The notes under the pieces were generated by a model. The model had not been told where the DNA came from. It made no database searches and worked only from the letters and a program-made list of their open reading frames with translations. A stretch of 63,342 nt of DNA, counting the filler, from Octopus bimaculoides (Eukaryota), in the NCBI RefSeq assembly GCF_001194135.2. It is 6 parts of 6 records of this genome, joined end to end, with 100 filler letters (N's around TTAATTAATTAA, not from the genome) between each part and the next. Parts side by side here need not be neighbours in the genome. Positions count along the whole stretch, not along the records: positions 20,372 to 50,201 come from NC_068981.1; positions 50,302 to 57,433 come from NW_026401590.1; 4 more parts are not named here. One strand, written 5' to 3'. Of this stretch, positions 23,579 through 54,180 are shown piece after piece. Every line of letters starts with the position of its first letter. The first letter of the stretch is position 1. The position numbers and the translations under genes are program-made.

Positions 23579-23647
23579 TACATACATACATACATACATA
23601 CATACATACATACATACATACATACATACATACATACAAACATACAC

Positions 23648-24320
23648 CGTATCACTGGAACTATAAAAATCTGTAAAAGTTTCCAGAGGCTTAAGTATAT
23701 ATGAGCATGTCTAGATATGCAACTATATGCATACATACATAAAACAAAGCATACAAATCTGCACCGATACACACATAAATACATACATACCTCCATGCAT
23801 GTATGCATACATACATACATACATACATTGGGATATGTAACAAACTGCCTCAACAAAAACCTGGAAAAATTAGGGTTCTCAAAACCTGAAAGAAAAAGGC
23901 TGATTAGAAGACTACAGATTCAAGCCATCAATGGAACTGTAAAGATATGTAAAACTTTCCAATAATTTAGCACATAAATACATATGCATGCATCTAGACA
24001 TAAAAACGCATCCATAAAACAAACATACAAATCTGCGCATACACTAACACCAAATACTGCACACACACACACACACATATGCACAAATACCTAGATGATG
24101 TTGATAAAAATTCCAATGAAGGAGCCTTGAATCTATGTTAGAGTCCGGCTCTTTCTCTATGGACAAGAAATACAGAAATGAAACTGATTGATAACATACA
24201 TACATACATACATACATATCCTGTTGATGTTCTTGAAATTCCAATGAAGAAGCTTTAGATCCAGGCTAGAATTCGACTCTTTGTCTATTGGCAAGAAATC
24301 TTGGAATTAAGCTGAACAAT
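23648..24320 (+). mobile_element. Tandem 5'-truncated 3' ends of an REL-type (R4/Dong-like) LINE, family T
   Basis: ITGTIKICKSFQ (23648-) and LGYVTNCLNKNLEKLGFSKPERKRLIRRLQIQAINGTVKICKTFQ* (23828-), then duplicated 3'UTR blocks; homologous to 48253-49070 and 53565-54180. Confidence 0.75.
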
Positions 24321-26087
24321 GACGTAGTGCACTGAAAGCTGTAATTTCTTCGGATAATGTTTTAAGCGTCGTAGATTAACAATTTTGAAAAAAACTTGGG
24401 TTTCTCACTACACAGTAGTTTGTGGACATAATAAATCATAAAGATTATTTTATTTACAACACAACTTTTATTACTTTAATAACATTAAAAATCAGTGTCA
24501 CGTAGTAAATTATATGAATTGATATGAAACGATACTGAGATGAGGTACAGCTATGTATATCTACTGAGCAACCATCAAAAGGTTTCTGTTTGATAAGTAA
24601 TTAAGTAGCTTAAATGATAGGGCACTTCAAATTTGAACAGAAGATTAGGGTCCGAATGCTACCTGTCTATCATTTTTATCTTTCTTTATCTCTCAGCCCT
24701 TCTCAAGTCTCGCTCCTTTAGTCCATAAATCTGGTAACCCGTGTATCTATTTTTACCCCTTTCTTTATTTTCTTTCCACTCCCTTCCTCTCCCTGTCTTT
24801 ATTCCTTCGTATAAGAATATATACGAACGAACTTATACACTAATATTACTTACAGTTATTTATTATACCAATCGTTCTTACGGAAAGTAAAAAGCTAGAT
24901 TAGATGTGTTATGGAATCTACTTTGTTGCCTCAAATTTCTGAACTTGAATCTATTGCTTTGTTCGATGCTGCTTTTCGTGAATCTTTGCTTCATGCAAGA
25001 CTGCATCAGTGATACATTGGTGCTTGTTTGTATCGCTACCCCTCTCTATATGCAACCTGTTTACAAAACTAAATGTTTTCCTTGTTTTATTTTACATTTG
25101 CAAGGACATATAGTGGTACATCTCTTGATAGTGTTGCTGTTGATGCCAGCCTTTGTTCAGCAGATCATAGACGATCGAGCCGTGGCCATCTTGAGTTTTA
25201 CTATCTCAAGGACTTTATTGTTCAACAAGTCATTATTTATTTGAAATGTTTGGGTGTAATTTGAGGGAAACTGCATAGGATTTACTCCATTGACTCATGT
25301 TGTTGTTGTTGTTGTCGTCGTCGTCATTGTCATTATTGTTGTAGTTCAGCCTCACGTCAGCTTTACATGGTATCATCTATACAGACACAGTTTTGTTGTT
25401 GTTTAGTCCCAGAACTATGAGAAAAAGCATTCTAACTCTTCTGATACCATCTTTTTAATTCCAAACACTTTTTAACGTGCCCCCACCTTTTCCAAGATAG
25501 CGGGGTAGTATTTAAGAGAGATTTAGCTACCATTTCTAGGAGGCCGAGCTGCTATACAGCAGTCCCATTGCTGGCCAAGCAATACAGTAATATTGAACTG
25601 TATGTCATTTAACAGCTGTTGTTCTAAAGCGGCTGAATGGTGATACCTGTACCCTTTACAAAGAAGTATCATATCAGAATGAAATTTATGAATGAAATTA
25701 GTGTAGTTTGAGAGAAAAATGTGTTAGTGATGAAGAAACATATGATTAGGTTAGTTAATTCCAGAAATAGGAAATTCTGAGAAGGATGGATAGTGCATAC
25801 TGCTTAGCGAATAATCTAAATATAGCAATAAAACGAAAAGAATAAAATGTAGATCTGAATGTTCAACAGATATATTTAAGCGTTGAGAGGATAGCAATAG
25901 CATTTGTTAAAAGTACAGGAACTTACAGAAACAACAATTCGGTTAAAAACTGTTAAAACTTTACACTGAACTGACCCTTTTCTGGAAAAAAAGCCAGCGA
26001 TTATATTTGCTTAAAATATGTTTAGATAAGAATGATAAAAAAGAAAAAGAAAAGTCAAAACGTAAATTTGAAGATGCGGAAAATGGA

Positions 26088-50510: not shown

Positions 50511-53500
50511 TATAGAACTGCGTTAAATCCCTATGGCCAGTTCAGAGCGCCCTCTGTTGGAATGGGGTGTGAATTTCATACTCTTTTTTCCTCCTCAGGA
50601 CCAGTTACTGAGAGAGACAACCCAGAGCTGATTAGAGAGTCAAGCTTAGGTAGTTTACTGGTTGTCTTCAACAAGAATCTATTTTTACCATGACGAATGG
50701 AAGTGACAAGCCTTTACCGGTTCAAATACCGCTCATATATATTTGGATTGGTCCTAAATTCGTATACCTACTGTCACTAATGCGTCCGCACACATACATA
50801 TTGTACCCTGGGACATATACGGAAAACGGAGAGGCTATCAGGCATTTTGCCCAAACAACTCCCGTGAAAAACGTACGGACGGAGGACCGAATGGTTTTTG
50901 CGTGAAAAACATTAAAAAAACTGCATAAATGTATGTGTTTGTGTGTGTGTATTTGCATGTATGCATACATATATGTGTGTGTATGGGTATATGGATGTAT
51001 ATTATATACAAACAGATGAACACATACAAAAGAGTTATTAGAAGGAAGTGGGTGTTGAATATATCACGCTATCTAAATACATCCATCCGCTAATGTATGT
51101 GGGTATGTATATGTATATATATATATATATATATATATATATATATCTCCCATATATATATATATACATACATACATACAGTCAGATAAACAGATACATA
51201 AATAACTTGATGTAGGTATGCATATACATATATATATATATATANNNNNNNNNNNNNNNNNNNNNNNNNNNNNNNNNNNNNNNNNNNNNNNNNNNNNNNN
51301 NNNNNNNNNNNNNNNNNNNNNNNNNNNNNNNNNNNNNNNNNNNNNNNNNNNNNNNNNNNNNNNNNNNNNNNNNNNNNNNNNNNNNNNNNNNNNNNNNNNN
51401 NNNNNNNNNNNNNNNNNNNNNNNNNNNNNNNNNNNNNNNNNNNNNNNNNNNNNNNNNNNNNNNNNNNNNNNNNNNNNNNNNNNNNNNNNNNNNNNNNNNN
51501 NNNNNNNNNNNNNNNNNNNNNNNNNNNNNNNNNNNNNNNNNNNNNNNNNNNNNNNNNNNNNNNNNNNNNNNNNNNNNNNNNNNNNNNNNNNNNNNNNNNN
51601 NNNNNNNNNNNNNNNNNNNNNNNNNNNNNNNNNNNNNNNNNNNNNNNNNNNNNNNNNNNNNNNNNNNNNNNNNNNNNNNNNNNNNNNNNNNNNNNNNNNN
51701 NNNNNNNNNNNNNNNNNNNNNNNNNNNNNNNNNNNNNNNNNNNNNNNNNNNNNNNNNNNNNNNNNNNNNNNNNNNNNNNNNNNNNNNNNNNNNNNNNNNN
51801 NNNNNNNNNNNNNNNNNNNNNNNNNNNNNNNNNNNNNNNNNNNNNNNNNNNNNNNNNNNNNNNNNNNNNNNNNNNNNNNNNNNNNNNNNNNNNNNNNNNN
51901 NNNNNNNNNNNNNNNNNNNNNNNNNNNNNNNNNNNNNNNNNNNNNNNNNNNNNNNNNNNNNNNNNNNNNNNNNNNNNNNNNNNNNNNNNNNNNNNNNNNN
52001 NNNNNNNNNNNNNNNNNNNNNNNNNNNNNNNNNNNNNNNNNNNNNNNNNNNNNNNNNNNNNNNNNNNNNNNNNNNNNNNNNNNNNNNNNNNNNNNNNNNN
52101 NNNNNNNNNNNNNNNNNNNNNNNNNNNNNNNNNNNNNNNNNNNNNNNNNNNNNNNNNNNNNNNNNNNNNNNNNNNNNNNNNNNNNNNNNNNNNNNNNNNN
52201 NNNNNNNNNNNNNNNNNNNNNNNNNNNNNNNNNNTGATGCAAAGAGGAAAAATACAAATGATACCCTATATACATACATATATATATATGAAATTTAAAG
52301 AAAAACAAAAGACGAAGACGGGTGTAATTAGATTGATGTTCGGGAAGGTGAGAAAGTCTTTTATGTTTCGAGTCTATGCTCTTCAACAGAAACGAACGCG
52401 AAGAAATAAACAGAGAATAGAAAAAAAATATGTATATGTGTGTGTATATATACACACATACATATATATATAGATATACACACATATAGGTACGTATATA
52501 TGTACATACATGTGTATGAATCATATATATATATATAGATGTACATACATATATGTATACACGCACACACACACACACACACTCACACACACACACACAC
52601 ACACACNNNNNNNNNNACGTATATATGTACATACATGTGTATGAATCATATATATATATATAGATGGACATACATATATGTATACACGCACACACACACA
52701 CACACACACACACATGTATATATATATATATATATATATGCGTGTGTGTGTGTATGTATGCAGATATACACGTATGATTATATATATATATATGCATACA
52801 CTTACACACACTCACACACACACACACACACACGCACACACATACACGATGTCTGCGCGTTAGCTAGATACCCTTATGTATGCGTGCGTGTCTATGCATA
52901 TCCTTAGATAGATGAATAGATAGATAGATAGATAGATAGATAGATAGATAGATAGATAGATAGATAGATAACTACCTACATACATACATACATACATACA
53001 TACATACGTTTGTACATATTTATACACATTCTCGCACACATGCATGTACATACTATCTCTGTGTGCCAGTATGTACTTCCCTAAACGTGTGTACGCGTGT
53101 GTCAGAGACAGGAGGGGGAAAGAAACGGGAGAGGGTCAAAAGGGGGAGGCGAATGGCTCCTTAGAAGTGAGCGAAGACAATTGCTGGTGACGTCACCTCA
53201 ATGGTACAAAGATGGGGGGGAAGGGGCATGACGTGGCTTGGAAGTGATGGTGGTGGCGGTTGCGTATGCTAAGAATAGCCAAGCACGTGCACACACTCAT
53301 CCCGTCCTGATGAACTCAGAGGATTTGAGTGTACAGAAGAAACCTTACTCGACCCGCTAGATATAGCAGCTAAATATTATTGCATATTATTGCATAAAAA
53401 TTCAAAAGCGCTATTTAAGACAACGTAGACTGTAATATGATACAGAAAATATCGTAATACAAGCATACATTTCTACATACATACATACATGAAAAGGTCC

Positions 53501-53564
53501 ACACATATACATGCATACATACACACACACACTCTTACATACATAACTACATGCATACACACAC

Positions 53565-54180
53565 TCGGGGCTTTGGGATATGTAGCACACTGCCTAAATG
53601 CCAATCTTGAGAAATTAGGCTTCGCAAAACCAGAAAGGAGAAAGCTGATTCAAAGACTACAGATCCAATCCATCACTGGAACTGTCAAAATCTGTAAAAC
53701 TTTCCAGAAGTTTATCATTTAAATATATATGAGCATGGATAGATATGGTAACTATACGCATGGGAATACATACATAAAGCAAAACATACAAGCCTGCATG
53801 CATACATACATACATACAAAAATACCCTGTTGCTGATGTTGAAATTCCAGTGAGGGAGCCTTGGATCTAGGTTAGAAACCGGCTCTTTATTGGCAAGAAG
53901 TCTTGAAATTAAGGCGGCGAGCTGGCAGAAACGTTAGGGGGCCGGGCGAAATGCTTAGCGGTATTTCCTCTGCCGTTTCGTTCTGAGTTCAAATTCCGCC
54001 GAGGTCGACTTTGCCTTTCATCCTTTCGGGGGTCGATAAATTAAGTACCAGTTACGCACTGGGGTCGATGTAATCGACTTAATCCCTTTGTCTGTCCCTG
54101 CTTGTCTCCTCTATGTTTAGCCCCCTTGTGGGCAATAAAGAAATAAGAAGTCTTGAAATAGAACTAAATAATGACATACA
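53565..54180 (+). mobile_element. REL-type LINE family T 3' end, interrupted by a SINE
   Basis: LGALGYVAHCLNANLEKLGFAKPERRKLIQRLQIQSITGTVKICKTFQKFII* plus 3'UTR homologous to 23950-24320. Confidence 0.8.
53910..54144 (+). mobile_element. Young SINE family A (long-tail subfamily) with 15-bp TSD
   Basis: AAGAAGTCTTGAAAT at 53895-53909 and 54145-54159. Confidence 0.95.

What the first reader, a model, noticed from the sequence alone, without database searches (positions are those of the whole stretch)
23580..54180. REL-type LINE family whose every copy starts right after a (TACA)n array
Seen: four 5' junctions at different truncation points (23648, 23828, 48253, 53565), each directly preceded by TACA/CA repeats. 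The 3'UTR itself contains ATAC runs and returns to ATAC repeats (54172-). At 23648-24320 several 3' ends are stacked head-to-tail. The 48253 copy shows AIQE, CCHC-knuckle and REL-like motifs. Established: REL-endonuclease LINEs are often site-specific, and Dong (R4 clade) targets (TAA)n. Inference: a (TACA)n-specific retrotransposon that re-inserts into, and regenerates, its own target. It could help explain the abundance of TACA arrays here. I do not recall this specificity being described, but cannot check.
Basis: partly seen in the sequence, partly recalled or inferred. Interest (0 to 1): 0.75.

Follow-up and report, generated by a model that had tools for sequence, protein, structure and literature searches.

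The report
Jumping gene homing to ACAT repeats
Three related families of a LINE-type jumping gene in this likely octopus genome sit, always in one orientation, inside ACAT microsatellites, so they likely cut and insert there on purpose, which would be a new target for a known kind of site-specific element.

Summary
The four window junctions belong to three related families (A, B, C; 63-76% DNA identity) of an R4/Dong-type REL LINE, not one family. A sense-strand ACAT run precedes 64 of 95 A, 65 of 76 B and 14 of 41 C 5' junctions. Controls: 157 of 20,000 random sites, 0 of 17 RTE-type LINE and 1 of 55 SINE junctions; the reverse strand gave 0 of 212. The 3' ends join ACAT in one register. 113 of 143 ACAT-positive junctions have no older copy upstream, so the runs are not leftover 3'UTRs. 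Corrections: 23648-24323 is a young B copy nested in A's internal ACAT run, not a head-to-tail stack, and only 9 of 211 randomly sampled ACAT arrays touch such an element, so it does not explain most arrays. Octopus Dong elements are published without a target; Dong is reported on (TAA)n; ACAY is reported for the unrelated APE element Waldo. No REL element on ACAT was found in 10 literature searches; Repbase and Dfam could not be checked. This scan noted the same idea in another genome (e1-10329220). New variant of a known kind.

The parts
23579..23647 (+). (TACA)15 array plus a few bases, upstream half of the target of the family A copy
23651..23827 (+). Family A 5'-truncated copy, left part: ORF end (GTIKICKSFQ) and 3'UTR up to and including its internal ACAT run (23767-23827), which is the target of the B copy
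   Evidence: A consensus 3730-3878
23826..24195 (+). Family B 5'-truncated copy (young family; ORF end GTVKICKTFQ and whole 3'UTR), nested in the A copy
   Evidence: B consensus 3579-3942
24194..24218 (+). ACAT run, downstream half of the B target
24216..24323 (+). Family A copy, right part: rest of the 3'UTR resuming after the nested B copy
   Evidence: A consensus 3874-3981
48193..48252 (+). (TACA)15 perfect array upstream of the family C copy
48254..49166 (+). Family C 5'-truncated, decayed copy: AIQE, CCHC knuckle, start of REL, about 89-bp internal deletion near 48878, ORF end, 3'UTR
   Evidence: 88% to C consensus
49166..49185 (+). CA run after the 3' end of the C copy
53501..53564 (+). 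Degenerate ACAT/CA run upstream of the second family A copy
53567..54175 (+). Family A 5'-truncated copy (ORF end, 3'UTR with internal ACAT run at 53803-53818), interrupted near its 3' end by a SINE
53910..54144 (.). Abundant SINE inserted into the A 3'UTR, with a 15-bp duplication at 53895-53909 and 54145-54159; used as a control element
54174..54265 (+). ACAT/CA array after the 3' end of the A copy

Best explanation
These are 5'-truncated copies of three related, likely R4/Dong-clade LINE families that lie in one orientation inside (ACAT)n microsatellites, and their protein likely recognises and nicks pre-existing ACAT arrays and copies the RNA in by target-primed reverse transcription. Shown: about 4.0-kb element, RT, CCHC knuckle, REL motifs, three-helix N-terminal domain, no N-terminal zinc finger in the aligned N-termini, ACAT on both sides, fixed register at the 3' join, all four phases at the 5' join, nesting in older copies. 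Inferred by analogy with R2/R4: the Myb/SANT-like domain and REL bind the repeat (the upstream part of the array mattering most), the ATGT strand is nicked first, reverse transcription usually stops early, and the 5' end is joined in the upstream repeat. Family A also carries an ACAT seed in its 3'UTR that can lengthen and be hit again, giving nests.
For: 5' junctions with at least 14 of 16 matches to sense ACAT: A 64 of 95 (full-length 29 of 39, truncated 35 of 56), B 65 of 76, C 14 of 41; ATGT, TAA and TTA 0 of 212. Background 157 of 20,000; SINE ends 1 of 55 and 0 of 19; RTE-type LINE 5' ends 0 of 17. 3' ends: A 29 of 45, B 26 of 38, C 17 of 34; all 34 complete B ends read within one mismatch of 2.5 ACAT units in the same register (the first two bases are part of the consensus end). 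The rate is highest in the youngest family (median identity to consensus B 98%, A 90%, C 88%), as expected if old arrays decay. 113 of 143 positive junctions have no family sequence within 300 bp upstream. In four B-in-A nests (window, L031, L099, L104) the host 3'UTR resumes after the insert, so the target existed before. Random 344 kb: 9 ACAT arrays touch a piece on the same strand, 0 on the opposite strand. Upstream run in 31 B copies with both ends: median 50 nt against 18 for random cut sites (p 8e-8); downstream 22 against 21 (p 0.83). Protein: Pfam RVT_1 4.4e-16, best PDB matches R2 proteins, CCHC-RH-PD..E..K..Y pattern, N-terminal profile hits Pediculus and Bombyx relatives at about 4e-10, three-helix model whose listed matches include many SANT/Myb/trihelix DNA-binding domains.
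Against: 69 of 212 scored junctions fall below the ACAT threshold, including 27 of 41 in C and 11 of 76 in B. No target-site duplication above shuffled pairings (B 13.3 vs 13.5 nt; A 5.2 vs 4.9), though repeats hide one. No empty orthologous site was available. Fold matches are middling (best Z 5.5, rmsd 2.4, 64 aligned; none at Z 8; Foldseek none at E 0.001) and Pfam gave no family for the N-terminal piece. Sequence cannot separate protein recognition from RNA-tail pairing. Loci were the 30 best-scoring of each search, not a random draw; 30 junctions next to N gaps (3 A, 27 B) and chains below 80/88/78% identity were dropped. The second K of the R2 K..KY motif is N here.
Confidence: 0.7

Rival explanations
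1. RNA-tail pairing picks the site: the transcript would end in a few ACAT units that anneal to a nicked ATGT strand, so a loosely specific nuclease gives products only in ACAT arrays.
For: All 34 complete B ends continue with about 10 nt of in-register ACAT, and the shortest 3' runs are 9-13 nt. Families A, C and D end the same way.
Against: Downstream pairing alone would allow 42% of sites to have under 14 nt of upstream repeat; 0 of 31 paired and 6 of 76 total B junctions do. Both mechanisms may act together.
Confidence: 0.2
2. The 5' ACAT runs are made or lengthened during integration (slipped second-strand synthesis, duplication of target, or template jumps), with a much shorter original target.
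For: B upstream runs exceed downstream runs (50 vs 22 nt, p 0.004) and still exceed null sites that already have 14 nt or more upstream (50 vs 34, p 0.017).
Against: Many 5' runs are interrupted by GCAT, ACAC and ACGT units and merge into mixed old microsatellite. Nests sit in a run that the host consensus already has. Combined length is not clearly above the conditioned null (p 0.10). A need for long upstream binding explains the asymmetry as well.
Confidence: 0.07
3. No targeting: the element inserts anywhere and copies survive or are noticed in ACAT-rich DNA, or the runs are older copies' 3'UTRs.
For: ACAT arrays are common (211 in 344 kb). 30 of 143 positive junctions have family sequence upstream.
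Against: 44- to 109-fold enrichment; strict strand bias (143 vs 0); AC and AT arrays are as common (253 and 238) but are met at only 4 and 6 of 212 junctions; RTE and SINE controls are flat; strongest in the youngest family.
Confidence: 0.03

Closest known systems
Dong (Bombyx mori; DongAg, DongBg) and the R4/Dong clade of REL non-LTR retrotransposons
   Same: RT plus REL, diverged N-terminal Myb/SANT-like domain without zinc fingers, insertion in a microsatellite (PMC7998251, passages; PMC3812793, passages). The N-terminal profile of this lineage hits a Pediculus humanus protein at 4.5e-10; a protein of that species is in the R4/Dong alignment of PMC7998251, but I could not check that it is the same accession.
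   Different: Target is (ACAT)n; TAA or TTA at 0 of 212 junctions, whereas PMC7998251 gives (TAA)n for most insects, mollusks and cnidarians. In the tree the three families (support 99) lie in a long-branched group of 43 rows (support 100) with an Argonauta protein, apart from the Bombyx, Pediculus and Diaphorina proteins (33-36% identity). No HDV-like 5' ribozyme was found, which Dong has (PMC3774820, passages).
Octopus Dong / Dong-R4 elements of genome papers
   Same: A full-length Dong consensus is reported for O. bimaculoides (PMC9115989, passages); Dong-R4 is abundant in coleoids (PMC8967140, passages) and has 5 recently active families with 1129 insertions in O. vulgaris (PMC13282606, parts 1-2 of 3). 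These are likely the same lineage (inference; their sequences were not seen).
   Different: No target sequence is named in the text I saw of any of the three papers.
Waldo (WaldoAg1, WaldoAg2, WaldoFs1; R1 clade, APE endonuclease)
   Same: Targets ACAY microsatellites, which include ACAT (PMC3812793, passages, citing Kojima and Fujiwara 2003, not read).
   Different: Different endonuclease class and clade; this lineage has REL motifs, and its full-length relatives show no APE family in Pfam. Here ACAT is strongly preferred to ACAC (B: 65 vs 1 of 76). The shared target would be convergence.
Other microsatellite-specific REL elements (Togen on (TG)n; some HERO families)
   Same: REL elements with repeat targets (PMC4640811, passages).
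   Different: Other clades and other repeats; not compared by sequence here.

Membership tests
R4/Dong clade | Non-LTR reverse transcriptase of the R2 group | tested here: met
   RVT_1 4.4e-16 on a 232-aa ORF of a related copy in this genome; top five PDB rows are R2 proteins, 2e-10 to 9e-8, L1 0.02
R4/Dong clade | C-terminal CCHC knuckle followed by RH, PD..(D/E) and K..Y REL motifs | tested here: met
   Pattern found in the family B consensus ORF and in 9 of 10 relatives checked; motifs as defined for R2 in PMC4838377 (passages); K..KY reads K..NY here
R4/Dong clade | One long ORF, no APE endonuclease | tested here: met
   Seven full-length relatives (1098-1279 aa) give RVT_1 and zf-RVT, no APE family; consensus A and B are 3.9-4.0 kb with collinear ORF pieces. 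No intact copy was found in this genome, so the single ORF is inferred.
R4/Dong clade | N-terminal Myb/SANT-like domain without zinc finger | tested here: inconclusive
   Conserved W..L...Y...GY..RLK..W...P....L..Q block, no C2H2 pattern seen, homologous to Pediculus and Bombyx N-termini; three-helix model, pLDDT 81; best Z 5.5 (rmsd 2.4, 64 aligned, ISWI), Myb-type rows among the top but below the Z 8 level; Pfam none
R4/Dong clade | RT tree position with labelled R4, Dong, Rex6 references | not testable with these tools
   No sequence labelled Dong, R4 or Rex6 came back; the quick tree is midpoint-rooted, has no outgroup and no labelled reference
Dong (narrow sense) | (TAA)n target | tested here: not met
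   TAA or TTA at 0 of 212 5' and 0 of 117 3' junctions
Dong (narrow sense) | HDV-like ribozyme at the 5' end | tested here: inconclusive
   No ribozyme family among 6 weak Rfam rows on one 5' end; crude descriptor gave no convincing fold at position 1 of the A consensus
Waldo (R1 clade) | APE endonuclease | tested here: not met
   REL motifs present; no APE family in seven full-length relatives
Waldo (R1 clade) | ACAY microsatellite target | tested here: met
   ACAT at 143 of 212 5' junctions; AC runs at 4 of 212

The most novel reading that the evidence does not exclude
An unnamed, widespread sub-lineage of R4-type LINEs (the GTVKI-terminus group, 43 of 90 tree rows) has switched its target to (ACAT)n and farms it: each insertion lengthens the upstream array and family A sows a new ACAT seed, so element and microsatellite feed each other and have added substantially, over time, to the ACAT load of octopod genomes.
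Probability: 0.2. Interest if true: 0.72.

Novelty: new variant of a known kind. Interest (0 to 1): 0.5.

Why it matters
It adds a tetranucleotide target to the R4/Dong group, whose reported repeat target is (TAA)n, and it would be convergent with the APE element Waldo. A pair of related REL proteins with TAA and ACAT targets makes it testable whether the Myb/SANT-like domain, the REL or the RNA tail sets the site. REL retrotransposons are being developed as insertion tools, so a natural repeat-specific variant is of use. For octopus work: an element that lands in microsatellites is hard to see with short-read callers, which may bear on the report that the O. bimaculoides Dong shows no recent activity (PMC9115989; inference), while family B copies here match each other at 98-100%.

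Tried and rejected
Protein search with a 176-aa piece among longer proteins found nothing; repeated with a 433-aa ORF. Pfam on five short pieces gave only weak rows. Metagenome scan for relatives' loci gave 1 weak 29-residue match among 22 candidate stretches, so targets of the lineage in other hosts remain unknown. A search from the Bombyx hit returned no protein named Dong or R4. The careful tree did not finish; the quick tree is quoted. The 'after_A_internal_run' count (64) was rejected because bare ACAT arrays matched the A consensus; it was redone with repeats masked. A first junction count with a C consensus that lacked a stretch (A 69 of 107, B 68 of 79, C 14 of 51) was superseded. TSD search was no better than shuffles. 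Foldseek gave no match at E 0.001. Rfam and a descriptor search gave no ribozyme. Sequencing runs: no RNA holder listed; contigs of four runs laid on a B copy added nothing usable. No intact full-length ORF was found among 40 long regions fetched (longest open frame 433 aa). Three papers asked for by id were not held. Literature searches without a report of an REL or Dong element on ACAT/TACA.
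Full report
Setting. The window is a pack of six stretches. The finding spans two: three junctions lie on G000:C1 near 155.93-155.96 Mb and one on C106733. G000 has 2.34 Gb in 145,327 contigs.

Observation. The four junctions and their TACA/CA runs are as described. They belong to three families. A (23651-24323 and 53567-54175) and B (23826-24195) are 76% alike over 3.2 kb; C (48254-49166) is 63-67% alike to them. 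The cluster at 23648-24323 is a nest: the A 3'UTR runs to its internal ACAT run, the whole B copy follows, then ACAT, then the rest of the A 3'UTR. The same B-in-A nest occurs at L031, L099 and L104.

Copies. Six DNA searches of the genome with family pieces gave 344 to 2595 first-look candidates each, lower bounds only; the 30 best loci of each were taken, plus 42 longer regions. Forty 10-kb stretches at round positions (344,322 non-N bases) served as an unbiased sample and held 11 pieces, 5.6 kb; scaled up this is of the order of 70,000 pieces (rough inference). Median identity to consensus is 98% for B, 90% for A, 88% for C, so B is young.

Junction test. A junction was scored positive when a 16-nt window within 24 bases upstream to 4 bases inside matched ACAT repeats at 14 or more positions. 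Only chains starting before the 3'UTR were used, to avoid circularity. After dropping 30 junctions next to N gaps and chains under 80, 88 and 78% identity: A 64 of 95, B 65 of 76, C 14 of 41 positive; ATGT, TAA and TTA 0 of 212; AC 4, AT 6. Full-length A 5' ends (29 of 39) behave like truncated ones (35 of 56). Background is 157 of 20,000 random 28-mers, giving 86-, 109- and 44-fold enrichment. Controls from the same genome: SINE ends 1 of 55 and 0 of 19; 5' ends of an RTE-type LINE 0 of 17 scorable among 30 loci (the RTE label is recalled from its motifs and GAT tail). At 3' ends A 29 of 45, B 26 of 38 and C 17 of 34 are positive, and all 34 complete B ends continue in one ACAT register. Against: 69 of 212 5' junctions are negative, most in the older families. 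A fourth family (7 ends) and two single ends also mostly run into ACAT-like sequence, but most were found beside other copies, so that sample is biased.

Are the runs leftovers of older copies? With repeats masked, 113 of 143 positive junctions have no family sequence within 300 bp upstream; 17 follow an older copy's tail, 4 an A internal run, 9 another piece. So most are ordinary arrays, and about one in five is a nest.

Does it regenerate its target? Family A has an ACAT seed in its 3'UTR; the spacer holding it is 15 to 161 nt in 30 uninterrupted copies, so it expands and is re-used. B has a CA run there, C none. In 31 B copies with both ends the upstream run is longer than the downstream one (median 50 vs 22 nt, p 0.004); no such difference shows in 19 A or 22 C copies. 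Random cut sites give 18 and 21 (722 sites), or 34 and 23 when 14 nt upstream is required (420 sites; upstream p 0.017, total p 0.10). This fits either a need for upstream repeat or modest growth at the 5' side. No duplication signal exceeds shuffled pairings. Only 9 of 211 random ACAT arrays touch a recognisable piece (0 on the opposite strand), while two SINE ends form groups of 13 and 9 array flanks. The element is thus a user and minor source of these arrays, unless decayed copies hide a larger past share.

Protein. No intact ORF was found; the longest open frame is 433 aa in a B copy. A related copy's RT scores 4.4e-16 in Pfam and matches R2 structures best. The B consensus has CCHC, RH, PD..E and K..Y motifs as defined for R2 (PMC4838377, passages). 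Relatives fall in two tiers: mostly 40-52% identity (unnamed ENA, JGI and Logan proteins, and Argonauta) and 32-37% (Bombyx, Pediculus, Diaphorina and others). A quick tree of 90 rows (a subset I chose from over 400 proteins held) puts A, B and C together (99) within a 43-row group (100) apart from the insect proteins; the six members of that group whose ends were printed share a GTVKI-like terminus. The tree has no outgroup or labelled reference. The N-terminal block is conserved, hits the Pediculus and Bombyx N-termini at about 4e-10, folds as three helices and resembles SANT/Myb/trihelix domains at Z about 5, which is suggestive only. PMC7998251 (passages) describes such a domain in R4/Dong elements. 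No 5' ribozyme was found.

Mechanism. Most likely a single REL protein binds and nicks the repeat and primes reverse transcription there, as R2 does; steps beyond the junction patterns are inferred. Pairing of an ACAT RNA tail may help fix the 3' register but does not alone explain the upstream repeat.

Known and new. Dong targets (TAA)n in silkworm, mosquito and the snail Biomphalaria, and Waldo (R1 clade, APE) targets ACAY (PMC3812793, passages; the primary Kojima and Fujiwara papers were not read). PMC7998251 gives (TAA)n for most insects, mollusks and cnidarians. Octopus Dong elements appear in PMC9115989 and PMC8967140 (passages) and PMC13282606 (parts 1-2 of 3) with no target named in what I saw. 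PMC4640811 and PMC3774820 (passages) supply the other REL targets and the Dong ribozyme; PMC13586686 (passages) gave only references. Ten searches found no REL element on ACAT. Repbase, Dfam, subscription papers, the 2025 REL survey and the supplements of the octopus papers were not seen and may already hold it. An unreviewed note of this scan reports the same kind of thing in another genome; it was read after my counts and is no independent support.

Verdict. Real, strand-specific ACAT targeting by an R4/Dong-type lineage; a new variant of a known kind; interest 0.5.

Noticed in passing
window 19782-19986, minus strand: A fifth, much older piece of the same lineage (68% to family B, REL region) with no clear ACAT run at its end.
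   Followed up: partly
L040, L044, L049, L043, L131, L136, L139 (A copies near locus positions 1500-2400 or 380-930): Several full-length 5' ends of family A are joined, after 270-650 bp, straight to the 3' region at different points: internally deleted copies that keep both ends and could be non-autonomous.
   Followed up: partly
L058:2250-2305, L031:4370-4420: Family A carries a GTA/AGT triplet run inside its ORF (poly-Ser) that expands in some copies, a second microsatellite seed.
   Followed up: no
L024, L041, L075, L095, L109, L169, L194 (3' ends); L005, L045: Further related families (D with 7 ends, and others) with different 3'UTRs, mostly ending in ACAT-like runs.
   Followed up: partly
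random stretches L230, L233, L234, L235, L238, L247, L254: Two abundant SINE-like repeats flank many ACAT arrays in fixed orientation, one downstream (12 of a group of 13 flanks) and one upstream (9 of 9), likely through their repeat tails.
   Followed up: partly
family A consensus 130-190 and family B 5' part (L212:1130-1190): A 5'UTR block looks better conserved between A and B than its surroundings and can pair with A positions 49-59; possibly an RNA structure.
   Followed up: no
window 53910-54144 and about 14 other window sites (e.g. 44590-44816, 11634-11792, 10213-10371): Very abundant SINE; 7 of 55 left ends follow TTA runs.
   Followed up: partly
family B loci L094-L122, L143-L222: 27 of 103 B 5' junctions abut assembly gaps, against 3 of 98 for A; young copies in microsatellites likely break short-read assembly.
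   Followed up: no
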